DNA from: Lagierella massiliensis
GTDB lineage: Bacteria; Bacillota; Clostridia; Tissierellales; Peptoniphilaceae
Length of the DNA: 64,000 nt
Assembly (NCBI GenBank): GCA_030532135.1
Contig: JAUNLT010000003.1
Span: forward strand, 68,423-132,422
Reading direction: 5' to 3'
The notes beneath the pieces are model-generated. The model saw nothing but the letters and a program-made list of their open reading frames with translations. It ran no database searches and had not been told where the DNA came from. Positions 1,136 to 22,900 of the stretch are shown in pieces. A program made the position numbers and the translations under genes. The stretch's first letter is position 1. Every line of letters starts with the position of its first letter.

Positions 1136-1441
1136 AGCTTATCCCCTTTCAAAGTTTAATTATACCAGTTTTGAACAGGTTTTTCCATGAAGATTTAGAG
1201 TTATAGCGTATAAATAAACTTCTAGTTTTAGATTAATCTAGTGGTATAGATAGATTCCTTAAAACTAGTTATATTCTTCTTCTGTACTAAAAAGGTAGTC
1301 GGCAAATAGATATTAAAAACTAGGTCATAAGATTTTAAAACACTTTTAGAAAAGATCTATTAAAAAATAAGGAAAATCTCTTGCTTATACTAATATAAAA
1401 ATTTTAGTAATTTAATTTCATATGCAAAGTTTAAATTTAAA

Positions 1442-1475
1442 AATCGGCATAAAGGTAAATGTCTTCATGCCGATT
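1442..1475 (-). terminator. Probable terminator of the decarboxylase gene
   Basis: AATCGGCAT...ATGCCGATT stem followed by a T-run on the minus strand. Confidence 0.6.
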
Positions 1476-1517
1476 AAATATTTAGAAACAAAATTCCTAA
1501 TTAAAAGCCTATTCCTG

Positions 1518-2945
1518 TTATTTTAAATTTAATGTTTTTATATCTTCTTTTAGTTCTTCAACTACAGTCTTAATATCTTCTTTAGAAAGAAGAGGGTGAA
1601 TTGCACAGAACCTTAAAACTTTCTTTCCTCGAAGTTCTGTAGTATAGTAGATAGACTTATTTCTATCAGTTGCCATTTGTGAAAGTTTTTGGTTTATTTC
1701 ATTTAGTTTTTCATCAGAGTATTTTTCATTGTAATACCTTACGTTAATACAAGATAACATAGCTTCAGAAACTATTTCAAAATAACCTTCTTTTTTGAAC
1801 AACTCTTCAAAGTACTTTGCAGATTCAAAACCAGTATCTACAGCTTTTCTAATGCCTTTTTGCCCTACTCTTTGTAGAGTGTACCAAAGTCTCATTCCCC
1901 TTGCTGGAGATGTAAGTTCTATTCCTATATCCCAGAAATTTACTTTAGAATCTCCTGCAGCAACGTCTGAAAGATATTCAGGATTTGCATTAAAAGTTCT
2001 TGTCATAGCAAGTCTGTCTTTGCAAATTATCGCAGCACAACCATATGTCTGGAACAGCCACTTATGTCCATCCCAACTTACAGAGTCTGAACGTTCTATC
2101 CCACTATATAGGTCTTTATATGAAGATAGTACTCCAGTAGCACCATATGCCCCATCAACATGTAACCACACGTTATATTCTTCAGCTATGTCTGCAAGTT
2201 CATTTAAAGGATCAATAGCACCTGTATTAGTCGTTCCTGCCGTTCCAACTATTAAGAAAGGTATATATCCATCTTCAATATCTTTCTTTATTAGTTCTCT
2301 AAGTACATTAGGCTTTATTTTAAACTTTTCATCTGTTTCAATCTTTCTTATATTGGCTCTTGGAACTCCCATTATATGAAATCCTTTAGCTACTGAAGAA
2401 TGGGTTTGATCTGATATATAAACTGTACCCTTTAATATTTCTTCATCTTTTAACTTTTCATTTCTAGCAATTACAGAAGCAGTTAAATTAGCCATTGATC
2501 CACCTGAAACAAAAAGTCCCCCAAGTTCTTTAACAGAATACCCTATATTTTCTCCCATCCAGTTAAGCATCCACTTTTGTGCAGTTGCAATACCTTCTGA
2601 CAGTACATGTGATCCCCCATACGGAGAATAAATTGAATTTATAACTTCACCTACTACTGATACTGGAGATAGTGCCAAAGGAATAAAAGAGAAGAATTTC
2701 GGATGATGTTGTTGAGTTGAATACTTATAAAGCAAATCATTCATCTGCTTTATAACTTCTTCTGGGTCTCTAGGCTCTTCTCCAAATCCAATATTTTTAA
2801 TTTCTTCCTCTTTGTCTTTAGGAAGCGGATTGTCAATATCCTGTTCTAAAATCTCGGTCTGCTTATCTATTATTTTAGGCACGATATTGGTTATGATTTC
2901 TTTTGCTTCATTCCAATCATATAATATGTTCTTTTCATTTTCCAT
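1518..2945 (-). CDS. Group II PLP-dependent (probably aromatic) amino acid decarboxylase
   Basis: SGGSMAN, HSSV, GTAGTTNTGAID, HVDGAYG and PLP lysine in SWDGHKWLFQTYGC. Confidence 0.88.
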   Translation of the reverse strand: MENEKNILYDWNEAKEIITNIVPKIIDKQTEILEQDIDNPLPKDKEEEIKNIGFGEEPRDPEEVIKQMNDLLYKYSTQQHHPKFFSFIPLALSPVSVVGEVINSIYSPYGGSHVLSEGIATAQKWMLNWMGENIGYSVKELGGLFVSGGSMANLTASVIARNEKLKDEEILKGTVYISDQTHSSVAKGFHIMGVPRANIRKIETDEKFKIKPNVLRELIKKDIEDGYIPFLIVGTAGTTNTGAIDPLNELADIAEEYNVWLHVDGAYGATGVLSSYKDLYSGIERSDSVSWDGHKWLFQTYGCAAIICKDRLAMTRTFNANPEYLSDVAAGDSKVNFWDIGIELTSPARGMRLWYTLQRVGQKGIRKAVDTGFESAKYFEELFKKEGYFEIVSEAMLSCINVRYYNEKYSDEKLNEINQKLSQMATDRNKSIYYTTELRGKKVLRFCAIHPLLSKEDIKTVVEELKEDIKTLNLK

Positions 2946-2989
2946 TTTTTACCTCCCTATAGGATTATAACATTATTTTCAACATAAAA

Positions 2990-3010
2990 AAGAAGAGTTT
3001 TACTCTTCTT
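2990..3010 (-). terminator. Intrinsic terminator of the DUF853 gene
   Basis: AAGAAGAGT-ttt-ACTCTTCTT hairpin at the stop, followed by a T-run on the minus strand. Confidence 0.65.
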
Positions 3011-4526
3011 ATCTTTTTCTTTTAAAAGAACCCAATATTCCCCTTGCCAGTTCACGACCAACAGTTCTTGTAAAAGCACCCCAAATAGAGTTTATTGTCC
3101 TGTCTACATACTTGTATTTCTCTCTTCTTTCCCTTTCCTCTCTCTTCTTAAGCTTCTCTTGTTCTCTCTCAATTCTTTTCTCTTCTTTCAATTTAAGCTC
3201 TTCTTGTTTTATTCTAGCTTTTTCTAAAATAAGTTCTTCTTTTTTTTCATCTTCAACTCTAAATCTTTCAGAAAGAACTTCATAAGCTGACAAATTATCT
3301 AAAGTATCCCTATATTTCAGATAATTATCGGAATTTGAAACAATATAGTCTATATCTTCATCATTCAACGTATCAAACGAACTAAAAGGTGGTCTGATTA
3401 TAACTTTTTCCACTTCAGTAGGTGTGTTTTTCTCATCTAGGGTTTGAATTATAGCTTCTCCTACACTTAAATTTAATATCTCATTGTAAGTGTCTAGACC
3501 TTTGCGTTGCCTTAAAGATTGAGAGATTTCTTTGACAAATTTAACTTCCTTAGGAGAAAAAGCTCTTAACTGATGTATTATCTTTGTTCCCAATTGGGAA
3601 GAAATTTCATCGGGTATGTCCTTAGGATTTTGAGTAATAAAAAATATTCCTACGCCCTTTGACCTTATTAACTTTACAACGGTTGTAATTTTTTCAAGTA
3701 AAATATTTGAAATATTATTAAAAATAAGATGTGCTTCGTCAAAGAAAAAGACCATTACCGGTTTTTCAGGATTTCCAACTTCAGGCAATACTTCAAATAA
3801 CTCTGAAAATAAATATATTAAAAAGGCACTATACAATCTTTTATGATTAATCAACTTAGAACTATTTAATATGTTTATAAATCCATTTCCAAGTTCATCA
3901 ACTTGCAAAAAGTCCTTAATGTCCACTGAAGGCTCTCCAAAAAATTCATTTGCACCTTCCTCTTCTAAAACTAATAATTTTCTTTGAATTGCCGATATGG
4001 AAGCTTGTGAAATATTCCCATATTCTATGGAAATTTCTTTAGAATTTCTTCTTAAAAATTCAAGCATCTTAGTAAGATCTTTAAAATCCATTAAAAGTAG
4101 TCCTTCTTCATCAGCCACTCTAAAAAGCACATTTATAATACCCCTTTGAGTTTCATTTAACTGGAGGATTTCTGATAAAAGTACAGGTCCAAATTCAGAA
4201 ACTGTTACACGAAGAGGCAAACCCTTTTCTTTATATATATCCCAAATATTTATTGGGTAGTTTCTAAACTCAAAATGTTTAAATCCCAGTCTTTGAATCC
4301 TTTTATTTATATTTTCATTGAAAGTTCCGACTTTAGACAGATTGACAAGGTCTCCTTTGACATCACTTATAAATGTAGGAACTCCTATTTGAGAAAGCTC
4401 TTCACATAGGACTTTAACTGTTACAGTTTTTCCACTCCCGGTTGCTCCTGAAATAACTCCATGTTGATTTAACTTGTCTTCTCTAATGCCAAAGGACTCT
4501 ATACCTTTTCCTAAATACAATTTCAT
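3009..4526 (-). CDS. HerA-like ATPase (DUF853/YjgR family)
   Basis: Walker A GATGSGKT, DVKGDL, Walker B FFFDEAH, IRSKGVG, QLRAFSP; C-terminal coiled coil. Confidence 0.88.
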   Translation of the reverse strand: MKLYLGKGIESFGIREDKLNQHGVISGATGSGKTVTVKVLCEELSQIGVPTFISDVKGDLVNLSKVGTFNENINKRIQRLGFKHFEFRNYPINIWDIYKEKGLPLRVTVSEFGPVLLSEILQLNETQRGIINVLFRVADEEGLLLMDFKDLTKMLEFLRRNSKEISIEYGNISQASISAIQRKLLVLEEEGANEFFGEPSVDIKDFLQVDELGNGFINILNSSKLINHKRLYSAFLIYLFSELFEVLPEVGNPEKPVMVFFFDEAHLIFNNISNILLEKITTVVKLIRSKGVGIFFITQNPKDIPDEISSQLGTKIIHQLRAFSPKEVKFVKEISQSLRQRKGLDTYNEILNLSVGEAIIQTLDEKNTPTEVEKVIIRPPFSSFDTLNDEDIDYIVSNSDNYLKYRDTLDNLSAYEVLSERFRVEDEKKEELILEKARIKQEELKLKEEKRIEREQEKLKKREERERREKYKYVDRTINSIWGAFTRTVGRELARGILGSFKRKR

Positions 4527-4582
4527 ATCCTCCTATCAATATTATAAAAATATTATATCATCTATACCCTGTTATTAAATAA

Positions 4583-4612
4583 AAAAAGACCCTAAACATA
4601 TTAGGGTCCTTT
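4583..4612 (-). terminator. Terminator of the opp operon
   Basis: GACCCTAA/TTAGGGTC stem plus T-run just past the oppA stop. Confidence 0.75.
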
Positions 4613-4618
4613 TAAAGA

Positions 4619-6445
4619 CTATTTTTCTAATGGTTTTTCAGAAGTAAGTTCCCAATCTCCTGGATCTGTTAAAACTTCACCATTACCATAACCAGCATCA
4701 AAGTTTTTAACACGGTTATTAAGAATTACCCAATCAGTTCTCCATTGTAGAGGAATAGCTGGACATTCTTCAAATACAGCTTTTTGGAAATCTTTATAAG
4801 CTTGAGCCATAAATTCAGGATCAGCTGCTTCTGCACTTGAAATTCTGTCTATAGGTTCTTGTAATGTGTCAGAAGTATATCTTGACATATTAAACGCTGC
4901 ACTATTTCCATAAGTTTCTTTAGGGTTAGGGTTAGTTCCAACTCCCCAAGCTGCAGCAAACACGTCTATTTCAGGGTCTTCTGCTTCTACCTTATCATAG
5001 AATGAGTTAAATTCCATTAAGTTTCCTGTTGCAAGTTGAGACTTAAGACCTATTTTTTCCCAACATTGTAGATAGTATTGAGAAAGTGGCTCTTGAGTGT
5101 CTCCACCTGCCATCATAGCTAGGTTAATTACTAGAGGTTCTCCCTTTGGATCTTCTCTAAATCCGTCACCGTCAACGTCTTTATATCCTGCTTCATCAAG
5201 TAATTCCATTGCCTTGTCAGGATCATATACATATCCTTCTATACTATCATCGTAGAATTCAGTAAATATAGGAAGTATAACTGATTTAGCTAATTGATTA
5301 TGTCCTTTGTAGAATTTTTCAGCTACAGCATTTTGATCCAAAGCGTAACCAAGTGCTTTTCTCAAGTTTACATTTGCCATCTTCTTATTAGGATCAGGTG
5401 TTATAGTACCTTCGTCTTGATCATAATGTCCTAGAGCAAATCCTAAATAACTGTAGTAGAAATCTCCTTTACCTACCATCTTATATCCTGGAATTTCCAT
5501 TAATTCGTCTACAGATTTTGAAGGAACTGATGAAATCATGTCATACTTATGAGCCTTCATAGCTGAAACGATATTTGAACTTGGAACAACTTCCATATTT
5601 ATCTTCTCAATCTTAGGTTTTCCTTTGTAATAATGTTCATTAGCTGAAAGTTCTACCTTTTGACCTTGAACGTAGTTTGAAATGTAGTAAGGTCCTGCAG
5701 AAAGAGGTCTAATACGAATTTCGTCAGATTCTTCTAACTCTCCAATAGGTATATCTTTTAAATAGTGATAAGGTGACAAGTCCACACGAATTCCTGAACC
5801 CCAGTGAGTTGCAGGAGTTAGTTCTGTGTATTGTACAACAACTGTATGATCATCAGGAGTAGTTATACCTTCAATCTTGTCAGTTGTTCCTTCATGATAC
5901 TCCTTCATTCCAACGATTCTTTCGTCTTCTGATTTGTCATAACGAACTCCTGTGTAATCAGGGTGTCCAACTATATAGTATGGATAAGCAAGGTCCATAG
6001 CTGTTACTGGAGTACCATCATTCCATGTTAAATCAGGATTTAATTTGAAAGTTACTTTATTTCCCTCTTCATCATAGTTTATTTCAACTTTGTCTGAAGA
6101 TATTAGACGGAAACTGTCATCTGAACCATATAAGTTTCCACCTTGATACATACCTATAACAACATAGTCATTTGAGTCAGTATATAAAGATACATCAAAA
6201 ATACCTTTAATAGGTGAGTCTGAAACTATACCATATTCAAGTGTACCGCCTTCAATGGCTTCTCCGTCATTTTCAACAAGTTGTGATTTTGCATCCCAAG
6301 TAATTTCTGATTTCTTACTAGATACAGCATCAGTTGAACCGCTGTTTCCTGAATCGGTAGAATCACTTCCGCCGCTAGGTTTACATGCTGTCAAAGTCAA
6401 GCCTAGTGCAAGACCAACAGCTAAAATACGAGCAAATTTTTTCAT
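4619..6445 (-). CDS. oppA: Oligopeptide ABC transporter substrate-binding lipoprotein
   Basis: Lipobox LTAC; SBP family 5 motifs WNDGTPVTA and GPY; operon context. Confidence 0.92.
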   Translation of the reverse strand: MKKFARILAVGLALGLTLTACKPSGGSDSTDSGNSGSTDAVSSKKSEITWDAKSQLVENDGEAIEGGTLEYGIVSDSPIKGIFDVSLYTDSNDYVVIGMYQGGNLYGSDDSFRLISSDKVEINYDEEGNKVTFKLNPDLTWNDGTPVTAMDLAYPYYIVGHPDYTGVRYDKSEDERIVGMKEYHEGTTDKIEGITTPDDHTVVVQYTELTPATHWGSGIRVDLSPYHYLKDIPIGELEESDEIRIRPLSAGPYYISNYVQGQKVELSANEHYYKGKPKIEKINMEVVPSSNIVSAMKAHKYDMISSVPSKSVDELMEIPGYKMVGKGDFYYSYLGFALGHYDQDEGTITPDPNKKMANVNLRKALGYALDQNAVAEKFYKGHNQLAKSVILPIFTEFYDDSIEGYVYDPDKAMELLDEAGYKDVDGDGFREDPKGEPLVINLAMMAGGDTQEPLSQYYLQCWEKIGLKSQLATGNLMEFNSFYDKVEAEDPEIDVFAAAWGVGTNPNPKETYGNSAAFNMSRYTSDTLQEPIDRISSAEAADPEFMAQAYKDFQKAVFEECPAIPLQWRTDWVILNNRVKNFDAGYGNGEVLTDPGDWELTSEKPLEK

Positions 6446-6499: not shown

Positions 6500-7414
6500 T
6501 TATACCCTTCTTTGCTTTGCATCAGACGCTCTTCTCAAAGCTTGTCCAACATAGTTTATAGATAGGGTAAATACTAATACCAATAGTACTGCTGGAACCC
6601 AAATATAAAGCTTATCCGCTATAACTTCAGGATCTCTTGCATATGCAATTAATGTTCCTAAAGATGGTTGTGATGGTGGAAGCCCAAAACCTAGGAAAGT
6701 AAGTCCTGTTTCAATTCCTATATTTGCTGCCAATGCCAAAGTACTATCTACTATTATAATTGAGCTAATATTTGGAAGTATCTCTCCAAACATTATCTTT
6801 ATTGGGGAGGTCCCCATTGTCTTAGAAGCACTTATATAGTCTTTTCTACCCTCTGAAAGAGACTTGGATCTTACAAGTCTTGCTATACCCGTCCAGTAAA
6901 AAGCTGACATTATAAGCACAAACTTCCATTTATTATATCGGGGAATTATCGTTACAAGTACAATTATAATCATGGTAACAGGAAGTACTTGTAAAAAGTC
7001 TATAATCCTCATGATTACATTGTCCACAACTCCACCATAATAACCTATTATAAGTCCGACTGTTACACCAATTGCCGTTGTTAAAAGAGTTACTAAAACA
7101 CCTATTTGAACCGAGTTATACGCTCCCAGTATCAATTGTCCTAGCAAATCTCTTCCACCCTTGTCAGCTCCCATTATATAACCTGCTTCTCCAGGTCTTG
7201 CATAAGAGTTAAATATATCTACAGTCATTACCTCTTTAACATCTAAAAAGAAAGAAGCAATGATTATTCCAAGTATCAAGATACATAGTATAAAAAATGA
7301 TATAAGAGCAAACTTGTCGTTAACAACTTCGTTTACAATTACTTTAAAACCCATTGGTTTTTCAGATTTTTGTATATCCTTATTTAATCCTTTATTTTTC
7401 TTTTTTAACGCCAT
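6500..7414 (-). CDS. oppC: Oligopeptide ABC permease
   Basis: GADKGGRD, EAA-like loop, PSLG motif, hydrophobic helices. Confidence 0.92.
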   Translation of the reverse strand: MALKKKNKGLNKDIQKSEKPMGFKVIVNEVVNDKFALISFFILCILILGIIIASFFLDVKEVMTVDIFNSYARPGEAGYIMGADKGGRDLLGQLILGAYNSVQIGVLVTLLTTAIGVTVGLIIGYYGGVVDNVIMRIIDFLQVLPVTMIIIVLVTIIPRYNKWKFVLIMSAFYWTGIARLVRSKSLSEGRKDYISASKTMGTSPIKIMFGEILPNISSIIIVDSTLALAANIGIETGLTFLGFGLPPSQPSLGTLIAYARDPEVIADKLYIWVPAVLLVLVFTLSINYVGQALRRASDAKQRRV

Positions 7415-7426
7415 TTACATAACCCC

Positions 7427-8386
7427 CTAGTCTATTCTTATTCTAGGGTCAACTATAGTCATAATGATGTCAGATAGTAATGAACCTAATAGTGTTAATA
7501 ATCCATAAAGTAAAACCAATGTAGTAATTACCGAATAGTCTCTTGACGATATACTATCAATGAAAAGCGAACCCATACCTGGATATGCAAATACAGTTTC
7601 AATCATTACTGATCCACCAAGTAGACCTGTTATTTGAAATCCGAAAAAGGCAGCTATTGGAAGTAGAGAATTTCTAAAAATGTGATGAGTATACACCTTT
7701 TTAGTTGGAACTCCCTTTGCCCTTGCAGTTCTTACATAGTCTTGAGTCTTTGCATCAATAATTTCGTTTCTCAAATACTGTACAGTACCAGTAGTAGCAA
7801 TCAAGCCATAGGATAAAGCTGGTAATAACATATGATAAATTCTAGAAGCTATATAGGAAAGTCCCCCTGAAGCTCCTATAGAAACTGTACCTCCTGTTGG
7901 AAACCACTTTAACCTGTAACCAAATATTAATAAAGTGACCAAGTACATTACAAATCCCGGAATTGAAAGGGTTAGGAAATTATATAGGTTTATTGCCTGA
8001 TCCAGCCGCGATCCGTTATACCTGCCTGCCAGTATTCCAAGGGGTAAAGATATAGCATACATGATAAGCATAGATAAAAGTGCTAGCCAAAAAGTATTTT
8101 TAGCTCTTTCTCCTATAACTCTATTTACTGGCATCTTCATGGTATATGATTTACCAAAATCACCTTTCATTGCATTTTTCAGCCATCTAGTATATTGCAC
8201 TGGTATAGGATCATTAAGTCCCGCTTTTTCCCTCAACTCCTCAAGTCTTTCTTTAGGAGTATTAGGATCTATCATTCCTGTAAAAGGATCCCCAGGCATA
8301 AACTTTGCTAGTACAAAGACAAATATTGATAATATCAACAGCTGAGGTATCATAATTAAAACTCTACGCAATACTGTTTTCCACAT
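7427..8386 (-). CDS. oppB: Oligopeptide ABC permease (start re-assigned to MWKTVLRR)
   Basis: MPGDP, DYVRTARAKG, HIFRNS; RBS GGAGG before ATG at 8386. Confidence 0.92.
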   Translation of the reverse strand: MWKTVLRRVLIMIPQLLILSIFVFVLAKFMPGDPFTGMIDPNTPKERLEELREKAGLNDPIPVQYTRWLKNAMKGDFGKSYTMKMPVNRVIGERAKNTFWLALLSMLIMYAISLPLGILAGRYNGSRLDQAINLYNFLTLSIPGFVMYLVTLLIFGYRLKWFPTGGTVSIGASGGLSYIASRIYHMLLPALSYGLIATTGTVQYLRNEIIDAKTQDYVRTARAKGVPTKKVYTHHIFRNSLLPIAAFFGFQITGLLGGSVMIETVFAYPGMGSLFIDSISSRDYSVITTLVLLYGLLTLLGSLLSDIIMTIVDPRIRID

Positions 8387-21093: not shown

Positions 21094-21681
21094 CTAATAT
21101 ACTTCTTTACTTTCATTAAGTTTAAACCAATATGAAGATGTTCCTATAATATAAGTGTAAGAATTTTTAGGCATTTGAACGATAATATTAAATACATTGT
21201 AATAATCTCCTGCACCCATACCTATTGTAAAAACAGCCATAGAACCAAGAAGATACATTTCCCTATTCATTAAAAATATTAAAAATGGTACAAACCCAAA
21301 TACAATGTTTGGCAACAAATTCATAAAAATCGCTCTTTTTTTACTAATATTTTCTGTCCCTGTAACAAAAAGCATTCCCTTTGAAAGATTAGTGAATAAA
21401 TATACGTCTTCCTTAAAACAAATAGCGTGTAATAACTCATGGGGGAAAAGTGTTAGTATCGCCAGTATTGCTCCACTTGTATTAAAATTTTTAATACTTC
21501 CAGTATGTATTGTGAAGAACAACAAACCTAAACCTGTCAATAAAATGGCCATTATATTTATTGCAATAGAAAATTTTTCTAAATTATCAGGTTCATTAAA
21601 TTCAACATAATTATCCTCGTGTTCTCTAGTAGGTAATTTACTATTATCACCGTCAAACTTTCCTCGAAAATGTAATTTCAT
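21094..21681 (-). CDS. Membrane zinc metalloprotease (DUF3267-like)
   Basis: PHELLHA (HExxH) within a hydrophobic segment, LLP and GAGD motifs; RBS AAGGAG. Confidence 0.8.
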   Translation of the reverse strand: MKLHFRGKFDGDNSKLPTREHEDNYVEFNEPDNLEKFSIAINIMAILLTGLGLLFFTIHTGSIKNFNTSGAILAILTLFPHELLHAICFKEDVYLFTNLSKGMLFVTGTENISKKRAIFMNLLPNIVFGFVPFLIFLMNREMYLLGSMAVFTIGMGAGDYYNVFNIIVQMPKNSYTYIIGTSSYWFKLNESKEVY

Positions 21682-21700: not shown

Positions 21701-21732
21701 AAGATAAACCTATGATAACATAGGTTTATCTT
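21701..21732 (-). terminator. Hairpin between the peptide genes and the protease
   Basis: AAGATAAACCTATG-ataa-CATAGGTTTATCTT (14-bp stem). Confidence 0.7.
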
Positions 21733-21738
21733 TTGTTG

Positions 21739-21894
21739 TTAGTTTTTCATGTTATAAATCATTTTTCCTATCTTTTCACCACTTTTATAAGATATAAATA
21801 CTAAAAAACAAATAGTTATGACAGATACTAAAATAGTGAAATACGGAAATTCTTTATATAATTCATGAAAACTCATGTACAAGATTTTATCCAT
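21739..21894 (-). CDS. Putative bacteriocin immunity peptide, 51 aa (not in ORF track)
   Basis: MDKILYMSFHELYKEFPYFTILVSVITICFLVFISYKSGEKIGKMIYNMKN; one TM helix; start overlaps the end of the upstream precursor. Confidence 0.65.
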   Translation of the reverse strand: MDKILYMSFHELYKEFPYFTILVSVITICFLVFISYKSGEKIGKMIYNMKN

Positions 21895-22033
21895 TATTCT
21901 TTGAGCCATTATACACGCCTAATCCAAAAGCGCCTACACATAGTACTCCAAGTCCTATTAAAAGTACAACTCCGCCACCATCTACCATCATTAATTCTTC
22001 ATTGCTCATGCAAACAAAATTTTGATTTTCCAT
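21887..22033 (-). CDS. Double-glycine bacteriocin-like precursor B, 48 aa (not in ORF track)
   Basis: MENQNFVCMSNEELMMVDGG|GVVLLIGLGVLCVGAFGLGVYNGSKNNG; RBS GAGG; GxxxG motif. Confidence 0.82.
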   Translation of the reverse strand: MENQNFVCMSNEELMMVDGGGVVLLIGLGVLCVGAFGLGVYNGSKNNG

Positions 22034-22046
22034 ATCTTAACCTCAA

Positions 22047-22220
22047 TTAGTTGTTCTTATAGTTGTAGATAGCTTTTCCTACAGCTACGCCTGCTTTATA
22101 GCAAACTGAAAGAGCAGCTCCAACTCCAGCAACAGCAGCACATGCTGCTAAAAATCCAATACCACCTTCTACTAATTCCAATTCCTTTGAATCTAAACAC
22201 TCAAATTTTTCTAATTGCAT
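22047..22220 (-). CDS. Double-glycine bacteriocin-like precursor A, 57 aa (not in ORF track)
   Basis: MQLEKFECLDSKELELVEGG|IGFLAACAAVAGVGAALSVCYKAGVAVGKAIYNYKNN; RBS AAGGAG. Confidence 0.88.
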   Translation of the reverse strand: MQLEKFECLDSKELELVEGGIGFLAACAAVAGVGAALSVCYKAGVAVGKAIYNYKNN

Positions 22221-22293: not shown

Positions 22294-22746
22294 TTACATT
22301 TCTACATAAATATCAACGTCTACATAAACTCCCAACTGCACATTATTGTCTCTCTTTGTTACTATAAGAAACGGTGATTTCGGGACAATATTATTACTTT
22401 TAATATAATCTGTTAACTCTATAAAAGATTGGTTAAGTCCCATCATAGGACCTTTATAATTTGTCATTAGTGCATTTTCAATATTGAACTCATCAACCCA
22501 TTGCATATCGTCTATTAGTTCAATTTTTTTACTAACTGGAATTATAAACTCAGTGTCAATTAATTTTTCATCTCCTGATTCTTCAATAGCATATGTAACA
22601 GAAATAGTACAATCTACAATTTCAGCTCCCATATCTTTAATGTAATTTTCAATTTCATTGGATTTTGAATTTAATTCTATTTGAGTTAATTTTTTTCTAT
22701 AACTGATAGCATTTTTTATAGAAAAGCTTTTATTCTTATATATCAT
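22294..22746 (-). CDS. GyrI-like small-molecule/peptide-binding protein (DUF5085-like); start re-assigned to MIYKNK
   Basis: Internally duplicated pattern ...DTEFIIPV...YKGP...LTDYIKSNNI...VDIYVE; RBS GAGG before ATG at 22746. Confidence 0.65.
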   Translation of the reverse strand: MIYKNKSFSIKNAISYRKKLTQIELNSKSNEIENYIKDMGAEIVDCTISVTYAIEESGDEKLIDTEFIIPVSKKIELIDDMQWVDEFNIENALMTNYKGPMMGLNQSFIELTDYIKSNNIVPKSPFLIVTKRDNNVQLGVYVDVDIYVEM

Positions 22747-22794
22747 TTCTACCTCAACTATAATATATTTTAAATTTATTTTTGGTACAATGCT

Positions 22795-22900
22795 AATATA
22801 CAAGTTAAATTTCTCCCTGTCAATGCTTTAGCACACTTCTTTCAAAGATTTAACTTGTGTTTAAGATGCTTAACATGTGCTTTATAATGCTTAACATTTT
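22795..22900 (-). promoter_or_regulatory. Sigma-A promoter with upstream ~21-bp-periodic repeats (LytTR-type architecture)
   Basis: TTGACA (22823-22818)-N17-TATATT (22800-22795). On +, TTA(A/G)C cores at 22828, 22850, 22870, 22891; ATGCTTAACAT occurs twice exactly. Confidence 0.7.

What the first reader, a model, noticed from the sequence alone, without database searches (positions are those of the whole stretch)
21739..22110. Putative immunity peptide mimics the C-terminus of toxin peptide A
Seen: peptide A ends YKAGVAVGKAIYNYKN(N) and the leaderless 51-aa peptide ends YKSGEKIGKMIYNMKN. That is 10 of 16 identical, including the GxxxG, with charged E-K replacing V-A. Inference: it is a membrane-tethered decoy of A that captures peptide B or occupies the receptor in a non-productive complex, possibly evolved by duplication of the toxin gene.
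Basis: partly seen in the sequence, partly recalled or inferred. Interest (0 to 1): 0.75.

Follow-up and report, generated by a model that had tools for sequence, protein, structure and literature searches.

The report
Bacteriocin immunity-like protein sharing toxin's tail
A two-peptide antibacterial toxin operon is followed by a tiny membrane protein whose last 16 residues copy the tail of one toxin peptide, so it is probably the producer's self-protection protein, but nothing has been tested at the bench.

Summary
Peptide A (22047-22220, minus strand) and the leaderless 51/56-codon ORF "I" (21739-21909) share 10 of 16 C-terminal residues. This is far above chance: 0 of 20,000 shuffles reach it, and the next-best 16-mer in the whole assembly scores 36 against 56.

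A and B pass the NCBIfam model for class IIb bacteriocins. A peptidase-ABC exporter with a HlyD partner lies on another contig.

I has no sequence homologue in 5.8 billion proteins. A motif scan and a profile search nevertheless showed that the tail, YKxGxxxGKx[IV][YA]N, is an older shared module. It also ends a second leader-bearing A-type peptide from a metagenome. It also ends leaderless 43-45-residue one-helix proteins. One of these overlaps the stop of a B-type gene in another genus. Others are stand-alone accessory genes.

The motif holds the only GxxxG of A and of I, and its variable positions fall on one helical face.

Best reading: I is a small one-helix immunity protein (like CbnZ, BrcI, AbpIM, GIP), possibly competing with A. 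A recent duplication of the toxin gene is not supported, and co-variation could not be tested.

Immunity by mimicry was already proposed for gallocin A. This scan noted similar mimic proteins in at least five other genomes.

The parts
22795..22823 (-). Promoter-like site (TTGACA, 17 nt spacer, TATATT) in front of the operon
   Evidence: 11 of 12 consensus matches, the best in the region. This is a consensus match only.
22294..22803 (-). First gene of the transcript. It has a weak DUF5085/GyrI-like hit and its role is unknown. The likely true start is the ATG near 22746.
   Evidence: PF16895 E 1.3e-4, 22.8 bits, below the cut-off of 30.
22047..22220 (-). Peptide A precursor, 57 aa. Leader is residues 1-20, ending GG. 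Mature peptide is 37 aa at 22050-22160. Tail YKAGVAVGKAIYNYKN is at 22053-22100 and contains A's only GxxxG.
   Evidence: PF10439 28.8 bits (cut-off 27.1); TIGR03949 27.9 bits (cut-off 21.5).
21887..22033 (-). Peptide B precursor, 48 aa. Leader is residues 1-20. Mature peptide is 28 aa, with its only GxxxG (GVYNG) five residues from the end.
   Evidence: TIGR03949 26.0 bits (cut-off 21.5). It is 50-54% identical in the mature part to the B-type peptide of G039.
21739..21909 (-). ORF I, the putative immunity protein. It has 56 codons from the first ATG. The probable start is the ATG at 21894 (51 aa, begins MDKI like the 43-aa relatives), which overlaps the end of B by 8 nt. There is no leader. 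The hydrophobic helix is at 21790-21849. The tail YKSGEKIGKMIYNMKN is at 21742-21789.
   Evidence: AlphaFold2 with 9 sequences, mean pLDDT 76, one helix over residues 17-50.
21701..21732 (-). Terminator-like hairpin (14-bp stem, T-rich tail) directly after I
   Evidence: 3 terminator-like sites found, against 0.3 expected.
21094..21681 (-). DUF3267 (putative zincin, HExxH) membrane protein behind the hairpin. It is probably a neighbour rather than a conserved part of the system.
   Evidence: PF11667 E 1.8e-21. None of 37 loci that encode homologues in other genomes has a double-glycine peptide nearby.

Best explanation
The locus is a class IIb (two-peptide) bacteriocin operon: promoter, GyrI-like gene, A, B, I, terminator.

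I is most likely the cognate immunity protein, of the small one-helix type. It stays in the producer's membrane because it has no export leader and carries a 20-residue hydrophobic anchor. Its anchor is followed by the same 16-residue helical module that ends toxin peptide A.

That module carries the only GxxxG helix-packing motif of both proteins. B carries its own single GxxxG near its C-terminus.

Inferred mechanism: I offers B, or the unknown membrane receptor, the same packing face as A. It lacks A's small-residue (Gly/Ala-rich) membrane segment. It would therefore form a non-conducting complex and keep A and B from assembling in the producer's own membrane.

Shown here:
- the genes and the operon layout;
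- the family membership of A and B;
- the significance of the shared tail;
- the recurrence of the tail in other A-type peptides and in leaderless one-helix proteins, one of them coupled to a B-type gene.

Inferred: the immunity function, binding to B or the receptor, and the topology.
For: 1. A and B exceed the curated cut-off of TIGR03949, the class IIb lactobin A/cerein 7B family. A exceeds the cut-off of PF10439. A C39-peptidase ABC exporter and a HlyD-family partner are present on contig C14.

2. I is the third gene. It overlaps B and ends 7 bases before the hairpin terminator (stop codon ends at 21739, hairpin begins at 21732). PMC2850506 states that the immunity gene shares the operon with the two peptide genes. 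PMC6957408 shows that the 42-aa one-helix CbnZ, encoded directly after cbnXY, gives 250-fold protection, and it lists BrcI (53 aa), EnkIaz (52 aa) and AbpIM (55 aa).

3. The tail likeness is highly non-random.

4. The motif recurs.
- Metagenome locus L081 encodes a B-type and an A-type peptide with long leaders. The A-type ends CYKLGEGLGKFIYN.
- G039 has a B-type gene overlapped (ATGA, GGAGG site) by a 43-aa leaderless one-helix protein ending YKFGYLFGKFAAN.
- Pairwise z-scores for I are 10.3 against A, 8.8 against L081-A, 7.9 against L067 and 7.2 against G190.

5. Y1, G4, G8 and K9 of the tail are invariant in eight sequences. The variable positions 3, 6, 7, 10 and 14 fall at 140-240 degrees of a helical wheel, which is one face. 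AlphaFold2 predicts the anchor plus tail as one continuous helix.

6. GxxxG-mediated helix pairing is the accepted model for class IIb peptides (PMC2850506).

7. GIP of gallocin A is necessary and sufficient for immunity. Its authors proposed that it acts by resembling GllA1/GllA2 (PMC10100652).

8. The stand-alone 43-aa relatives are accessory genes in relatives of the producer. They are present in 5 of the 34 species of genus g54 that were sampled. They are missing from the same site in three others. This is what is expected of orphan immunity genes.
Against: No experiment exists, and no RNA data could be listed.

I has no detectable homologue by sequence search. Conservation of the gene itself therefore rests on the motif and on weak full-length similarity. 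A profile of the seven 43-aa proteins alone scores I at only 10.4 bits: rank 3 of 20,871 ORFs, E 0.54 per genome. With tails removed, only I against G190 reaches z 3.4.

The ribosome site of I is weak.

The positive-inside rule (N-part -1, tail +3) puts I's tail in the cytoplasm, whereas CbnZ has its C-terminus outside. A decoy on the inner side works only if A's tail also crosses the membrane, as proposed for lactococcin G-alpha.

G039 has a B-type and an I-type gene but no visible A-type gene. The tail may therefore serve B, or the membrane, independently of any mimicry of A.

Beyond the family motif, A and I share only K-N, so there is no sign of locus-specific co-evolution.
Confidence: 0.45

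Rival explanations
1. I is the immunity protein, but the shared tail is not a decoy of A. The Tyr/Lys-flanked GxxxG helix is a general interface or oligomerisation module. Both A-type peptides and these small membrane proteins use it for positioning or self-association. Protection works in another way, for example by shielding a receptor or plugging the pore from the cytoplasmic side.
For: G039 pairs the motif-bearing small protein with a B-type peptide and has no A-type gene. Stand-alone copies exist without any double-glycine peptide within 18 kb. The charge distribution suggests a cytoplasmic tail. Pediocin-type immunity proteins act from the cytosolic side on the bacteriocin-receptor complex (PMC2850506).
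Against: The motif is the only GxxxG in A and in I and is their most conserved feature. B-type peptides keep a matching single GxxxG. The interference idea has a published precedent (PMC10100652).
Confidence: 0.2
2. I is not an immunity protein. It belongs to a family of small accessory membrane proteins with another role, such as helping insertion, export or stability of B-type peptides, or an unrelated membrane function. A-type toxins evolved from, or borrowed a module of, that family.
For: The leaderless 43-aa proteins sit in non-bacteriocin contexts: HGSNAT-like acyltransferase | 43 aa | DUF4230 | trmB in genus g54, and next to a PqqD-like gene in G160. A further 64-aa two-helix protein follows in G039 and could be the real immunity protein there.
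Against: The gene position and size match proven class IIb immunity proteins (PMC6957408). The window operon holds no other candidate immunity gene in front of the terminator. The DUF3267 gene behind it is not linked to such peptides elsewhere. The patchy, accessory distribution of the 43-aa genes fits orphan immunity genes.
Confidence: 0.2
3. I is a third, leaderless toxin component, or a leaderless substitute for A, that acts together with B.
For: It shares A's presumed B-binding module. G039 has B-type plus I-type genes only.
Against: It has an uninterrupted 20-residue bulky hydrophobic segment typical of a membrane anchor. It has no leader and no dedicated exporter. Known leaderless bacteriocins are amphipathic and cationic rather than anchored (general knowledge). 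If I were a toxin component, no immunity gene would be left in the operon.
Confidence: 0.05
4. The ORF is not expressed. The likeness is a decaying partial duplicate of the 3' end of gene A, or chance.
For: The ribosome site is weak, sequence homologues are absent, and no expression data exist.
Against: The frame is open for 56 codons in 31% G+C DNA. Chance is excluded. Four of ten conserved residues have synonymous codon differences. A clean hydrophobic helix sits upstream of the tail. The same architecture, with a strong ribosome site, is seen in G039.
Confidence: 0.03

Closest known systems
Gallocin A operon gllA2-gllA1-gip of Streptococcus gallolyticus (PMC10100652)
   Same: It has two double-glycine peptides followed by a small third gene. 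GIP was shown to be necessary and sufficient for immunity. Its predicted structure resembles the mature toxin peptides, and the authors proposed immunity by competition or interference.
   Different: The GIP resemblance was described as structural: helical hairpins with disulfides. Here the likeness is a 10-of-16 sequence match in a single helical tail, with no hairpin predicted. No sequence relation to GIP was tested, because no GIP sequence was on hand.
Small one-helix immunity proteins of class IIb bacteriocins: CbnZ (42 aa), BrcI (53 aa), EnkIaz (52 aa), AbpIM (55 aa) (PMC6957408)
   Same: They share the size, the single membrane helix, the absence of a leader, and a gene directly after the two structural genes.
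   Different: CbnZ has its C-terminus outside, whereas the charge bias of I suggests the opposite. That paper reports 'very little similarity' between class IIb immunity proteins and mentions no likeness to their toxins. Homology to I was not tested.
Class IIb bacteriocins of the lactobin A/cerein 7B family (TIGR03949) and the lactococcin G model of GxxxG helix pairing (PMC2850506)
   Same: A and B pass the family model. Each has a GxxxG motif. The exporter is on a separate locus, as for enterocin 1071 and the plantaricins.
   Different: The mature sequences have no close relatives in 5.8 billion proteins. The C-terminal YKxGxxxGKxIYN module matched no Pfam or NCBIfam model searched here.
Phage holin/antiholin pairs (e.g. 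lambda S105/S107); comparison drawn from general knowledge
   Same: It is a concept-level analogue: a membrane-resident near-copy of a pore-forming partner blocks productive assembly.
   Different: Antiholins are nearly full-length isoforms from the same gene. Here only a 16-residue module is shared between separate genes.

Membership tests
Class IIb two-peptide bacteriocin (TIGR03949 / PF10439) | Profile match above the curated cut-off | tested here: met
   TIGR03949 gives A 27.9 and B 26.0 bits (cut-off 21.5). PF10439 gives A 28.8 bits (cut-off 27.1), but B only 22.5, which is below it.
Class IIb two-peptide bacteriocin (TIGR03949 / PF10439) | Double-glycine leader of 15-30 residues on both peptides, with the genes adjacent in one operon | tested here: met
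   both have 20-residue leaders ending GG, with L(-12), E(-8), L/M(-7) and V(-4). The genes are 13 bp apart.
Class IIb two-peptide bacteriocin (TIGR03949 / PF10439) | GxxxG motif in each mature peptide | tested here: met
   there is one GxxxG in A (GVAVG) and one in B (GVYNG).
Class IIb two-peptide bacteriocin (TIGR03949 / PF10439) | Dedicated C39-peptidase ABC exporter with an accessory protein | tested here: inconclusive
   a 736-aa C39+ABC protein and a 513-aa HlyD-family protein lie on contig C14 of the same 65%-complete assembly. They are not linked to this locus, and no functional link is shown.
Class IIb two-peptide bacteriocin (TIGR03949 / PF10439) | Antibacterial activity that needs both peptides | not testable with these tools
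   This needs synthetic peptides or a culture.
Small one-helix class IIb immunity proteins (CbnZ/BrcI/EnkIaz/AbpIM/GIP type) | Gene directly downstream of the structural genes in the same transcript | tested here: met
   I overlaps B by 8 or 23 nt, and the terminator hairpin follows I.
Small one-helix class IIb immunity proteins (CbnZ/BrcI/EnkIaz/AbpIM/GIP type) | About 40-55 residues, one membrane helix, no export leader | tested here: met
   51/56 aa, a 20-residue hydrophobic segment, a predicted helix over residues 17-50, and no GG motif.
Small one-helix class IIb immunity proteins (CbnZ/BrcI/EnkIaz/AbpIM/GIP type) | Confers protection when expressed alone | not testable with these tools
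   This is a bench assay.
Small one-helix class IIb immunity proteins (CbnZ/BrcI/EnkIaz/AbpIM/GIP type) | Sequence homology to a proven member | not tested
PMC6957408 says these proteins share very little similarity with each other anyway.
Unnamed 43-aa leaderless membrane-protein family (G039, G160, five species of genus g54) | C-terminal Y-K/R-x-G-x-x-x-G-K-x-x-x-N/H ending 16 residues after the Tyr, directly after the helix | tested here: met
Unnamed 43-aa leaderless membrane-protein family (G039, G160, five species of genus g54) | Full-length profile match | tested here: inconclusive
   10.4 bits, rank 3 of 20,871 ORFs (E 0.54 per genome, about 3e-5 per sequence); with tails removed, only I against G190 reaches z 3.4.
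DUF3267 protease as a conserved partner of such peptides | Homologues elsewhere lie next to double-glycine peptides | tested here: not met
   0 of 37 loci.
Leaderless bacteriocins | A secreted, amphipathic cationic peptide without a long uninterrupted hydrophobic anchor | tested here: not met
   there is a 20-residue bulky hydrophobic stretch. Secretion itself is not testable.

The most novel reading that the evidence does not exclude
The YKxGxxxGK tail is a portable partner-binding module. Immunity proteins for this bacteriocin family would be membrane-anchored carriers of the module that toxin peptide A uses to dock onto B. Orphan copies in non-producing relatives (genus g54, G160) would give them cross-protection. 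Together with gallocin GIP and the other mimic proteins noted by this scan, this would point to a general rule: small class IIb immunity proteins work as dominant-negative copies of a piece of their own toxin. A strain's resistance spectrum could then be read from the tail motif.
Probability: 0.2. Interest if true: 0.7.

Novelty: new variant of a known kind. Interest (0 to 1): 0.45.

Why it matters
How producers of two-peptide bacteriocins protect themselves is still largely unknown. The small immunity proteins share no recognisable features with each other. The only mechanistic idea for them, competition by resemblance, rests on predicted structures of gallocin GIP.

This locus gives a clean sequence-level case. 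The module is 16 residues long, holds the single GxxxG of both proteins, and has a conserved and a variable helical face. The hypothesis can therefore be tested with a few point mutants, a tail deletion and a synthetic tail peptide.

The same module also occurs in stand-alone accessory genes of related species. If it is functional, this would offer a way to predict cross-immunity from genomes.

Tried and rejected
- Homologue searches for I and A found nothing but the query. This covers word-indexed searches of 5.8 billion proteins, full phmmer on 1.84 billion representatives for I, and six-frame searches of 200 same-family genomes.
The closest DUF3267 relatives (63-74% identity) could not be placed in their contigs.
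- Synteny through DUF3267: 37 loci, none with double-glycine peptides. My first leader regex had the wrong spacing and was corrected.
- Same-genus DNA synteny was too diverged to use.
- A strict 10-residue motif scan gave 0 hits in metagenome and viral contigs. A relaxed scan gave 25 hits, of which only L081 and L067 are relevant. The others are an unrelated ~120-aa protein family, non-coding DNA (L070) or fragments.
- tblastn of I, B and the 43-aa protein against plasmids gave no match.
- The ESM Atlas gave no usable hit.
- A class-level profile scan of 400 genomes gave only Fic-domain proteins and a repeated element at contig ends.
- Complex prediction of B (30 aa) with I gave no verdict: score 0.13, below the mark of 0.32. 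It is evidence neither way.
- For sequencing runs, none was listed and no RNA holder was listed.
- A recent duplication of gene A was rejected. Nothing aligns outside the tail, and tail DNA identity is 62%.

Full report
**Anatomy**

On the minus strand the window holds a compact transcript.
- A strong promoter-like site at 22823-22795 (11/12 consensus matches).
- A 150-169-aa protein with a weak GyrI-like/DUF5085 hit.
- Peptide A (22047-22220) and peptide B (21887-22033).
- A small ORF, called I here (21739-21909).
- A hairpin with a 14-bp stem and T-rich tail (21732-21701).

A DUF3267 HExxH membrane protein (21094-21681) follows, with a good ribosome site of its own and a second terminator.

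A and B each have a 20-residue leader of the double-glycine type. I has none.

The assembly is a 1.23-Mb, 65%-complete, 31% G+C metagenome-assembled genome. The closest named relative of its DUF3267 protein is labelled Tissierellia.

**The observation**

The tails of A and I are identical at 10 of 16 positions.
- The local alignment scores 58, against 19.3 +/- 3.5 for shuffles, with none of 20,000 reaching it.
- In every six-frame 16-mer of the assembly, the next-best match to either tail scores 36, against 56. The Lys/Asn/Tyr richness of an AT-rich genome therefore does not explain the match.
- In ten other loci with double-glycine peptides, no toxin-neighbour pair exceeds z 4.2, against 12.7 here.
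- The two 48-base stretches are only 62% identical. Four of the ten conserved residues use different codons. The match is maintained at protein level and I is translated sequence, not a fresh DNA copy.

**What A and B are**

Both exceed the curated cut-off of NCBIfam TIGR03949, the class IIb lactobin A/cerein 7B family. A also exceeds the cut-off of Pfam PF10439.

Each mature peptide has exactly one GxxxG, near its C-terminus.

A C39-peptidase ABC exporter (736 aa) with a HlyD-family partner lies on contig C14. A separate exporter locus is described for enterocin 1071 and the plantaricins (PMC2850506).

**Relatives**

Neither I nor A has a homologue in 5.8 billion proteins. I also has none in a full phmmer search of 1.84 billion representatives, and neither has one in 200 genomes of the same family.

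I therefore back-translated the shared positions into a degenerate DNA pattern. The strict form found nothing. The form YKxGxxxGKxIYN found 25 metagenome contigs, two of them informative.
- L081 encodes a B-type and an A-type peptide with long Nif11-like leaders. The A-type ends CYKLGEGLGKFIYN, four residues before its stop.
- L067 encodes a leaderless 45-aa one-helix protein ending YKDGYKLGKSIYNRNK.

A TIGR03949 scan of 401 genomes of the order then turned up genome G039. There a B-type gene, 50-54% identical to B in the mature part, is overlapped by a 43-aa leaderless one-helix protein ending YKFGYLFGKFAANINL. The overlap is ATGA, with a GGAGG site 10 nt upstream.

A profile of these sequences found the same 43-aa protein in two further settings.
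- G160 carries it at 93% identity, in another genus, beside a PqqD-like gene and mobilisation-like genes. No double-glycine peptide lies within 18 kb.
- Five species of genus g54 carry it between an HGSNAT-like acyltransferase gene and a DUF4230 gene.

In g54 the gene is accessory. Three other species have the same two neighbours 55-64 bp apart without it, and a fourth has an insertion sequence there.

A class-wide sample of 400 genomes gave only spurious hits.

**How solid is the link of I to these proteins**

Pairwise, I is significantly similar to all of them: z is 10.3 against A, 8.8 against L081-A, 7.9 against L067, 7.2 against G190 and 5.2 against G039. Almost all of the signal is in the tail.

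With tails removed, only I against G190 is suggestive (z 3.4). A profile of the seven 43-aa proteins alone ranks I third of 20,871 ORFs, at 10.4 bits.

I therefore treat I as carrying the same C-terminal module, and as at most a divergent member of that family. The MDKI start shared with the g54 proteins favours the ATG at 21894 (51 aa) as the true start.

**Reading of the module**

Across eight sequences Y1, G4, G8 and K9 are invariant, and K2 and N13 nearly so. The variable positions 3, 6, 7, 10 and 14 fall on one side of a helical wheel.

AlphaFold2 with the nine-sequence alignment predicts anchor plus tail of I as one helix over residues 17-50, with pLDDT 81-88 in that part.

The module holds the only GxxxG of A and of I. 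B-type peptides keep an invariant G-x-Y-x-G.

GxxxG-mediated helix pairing is the accepted model for class IIb peptides and is supported by mutagenesis for lactococcin G and plantaricin JK (PMC2850506). The conserved face is therefore a good candidate for the contact with B or with a receptor.

**Function**

Position, size and architecture match the proven small immunity proteins CbnZ, BrcI, EnkIaz and AbpIM (PMC6957408). The operon offers no other candidate in front of the terminator.

The DUF3267 gene is not associated with such peptides in 37 other loci.

For gallocin A, the third gene, gip, is necessary and sufficient for immunity. Its authors proposed immunity by competition because GIP's model resembles the toxin peptides (PMC10100652).

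This locus adds a sequence-level example.

**What is not supported**

A recent duplication of the toxin gene is not supported. Nothing outside the tail aligns, and the module exists in genomes without A-type genes. Beyond the family motif, A and I share only the terminal K-N. The direction of descent is open.

Topology is also uncertain. The charge bias of I (N-part -1, tail +3) points to a cytoplasmic tail, unlike CbnZ. That fits a decoy only if A's cationic tail crosses the membrane, as proposed for lactococcin G-alpha (PMC2850506).

The complex prediction of B with I gave no verdict, and no sequencing run could be listed.

**Verdict**

An immunity role is likely (about 0.65). The tail-competition mechanism is plausible (about 0.45 for the combined statement).

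The case is a new sequence family and a clear variant of a known kind of system, not a new kind. Notes of this scan describe similar leaderless mimic proteins next to double-glycine peptides in at least five other genomes. I did not check those loci.

Noticed in passing
G000 contig C14 (locus L155) 1311-5059: A complete C39-peptidase ABC transporter (736 aa) and a HlyD-family protein (513 aa) lie on another contig.
   Followed up: partly
window 21094-21681: A DUF3267 HExxH membrane protein sits behind the operon terminator. It has more than 1,000 homologues at 40-74% identity across Firmicutes, and none of 37 fetched loci carries a double-glycine peptide. It is therefore probably not a dedicated immunity or processing gene.
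   Followed up: yes
L100 (G039) 7189-7744: A B-type double-glycine peptide with a 15-residue C-terminal extension whose codons hold the ribosome site of the next gene. It is followed by the 43-aa tail-motif protein and then a 64-aa two-helix protein. No A-type gene is visible, but 1 kb just upstream is withheld (reads N).
   Followed up: partly
L103/L139 (G160) 1495-1626 of L103: The 43-aa protein of G160 is 93% identical to that of G039, although the genomes are in different genera. It lies next to a PqqD-like gene, an OPT-type transporter and mobilisation-like small genes. This suggests horizontal transfer.
   Followed up: partly
L104-L108 (genus g54), about 1474-1632 in each: There is a presence/absence polymorphism of the 43-aa gene between an HGSNAT-like acyltransferase gene and a convergent DUF4230 gene next to trmB. 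The gene is absent in G200, G085 and G178, and G106 has an insertion sequence at the site.
   Followed up: yes
L081 243-923: A metagenome variant of the same A/B peptide pair carries 72-75-residue Nif11-like leaders, in the order B then A. The following 107-aa ORF is not membrane-like, and the contig ends there.
   Followed up: partly
window 22101-22103 and L081 867-869: A Cys directly precedes the YK of the tail in both A-type peptides. I has Ser there, and the other leaderless proteins have Leu/Val/Ile/Phe. B-type peptides keep one invariant Cys, so an intermolecular A-B disulfide is conceivable.
   Followed up: no
L141-L144, L147, L151 (several Clostridia genera): A conserved stretch near several contig ends translates to ...LILILVLYKFRILIGKSVYN... 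and recurs across genera. It looks like a repeated element rather than a gene and gave false profile hits.
   Followed up: no
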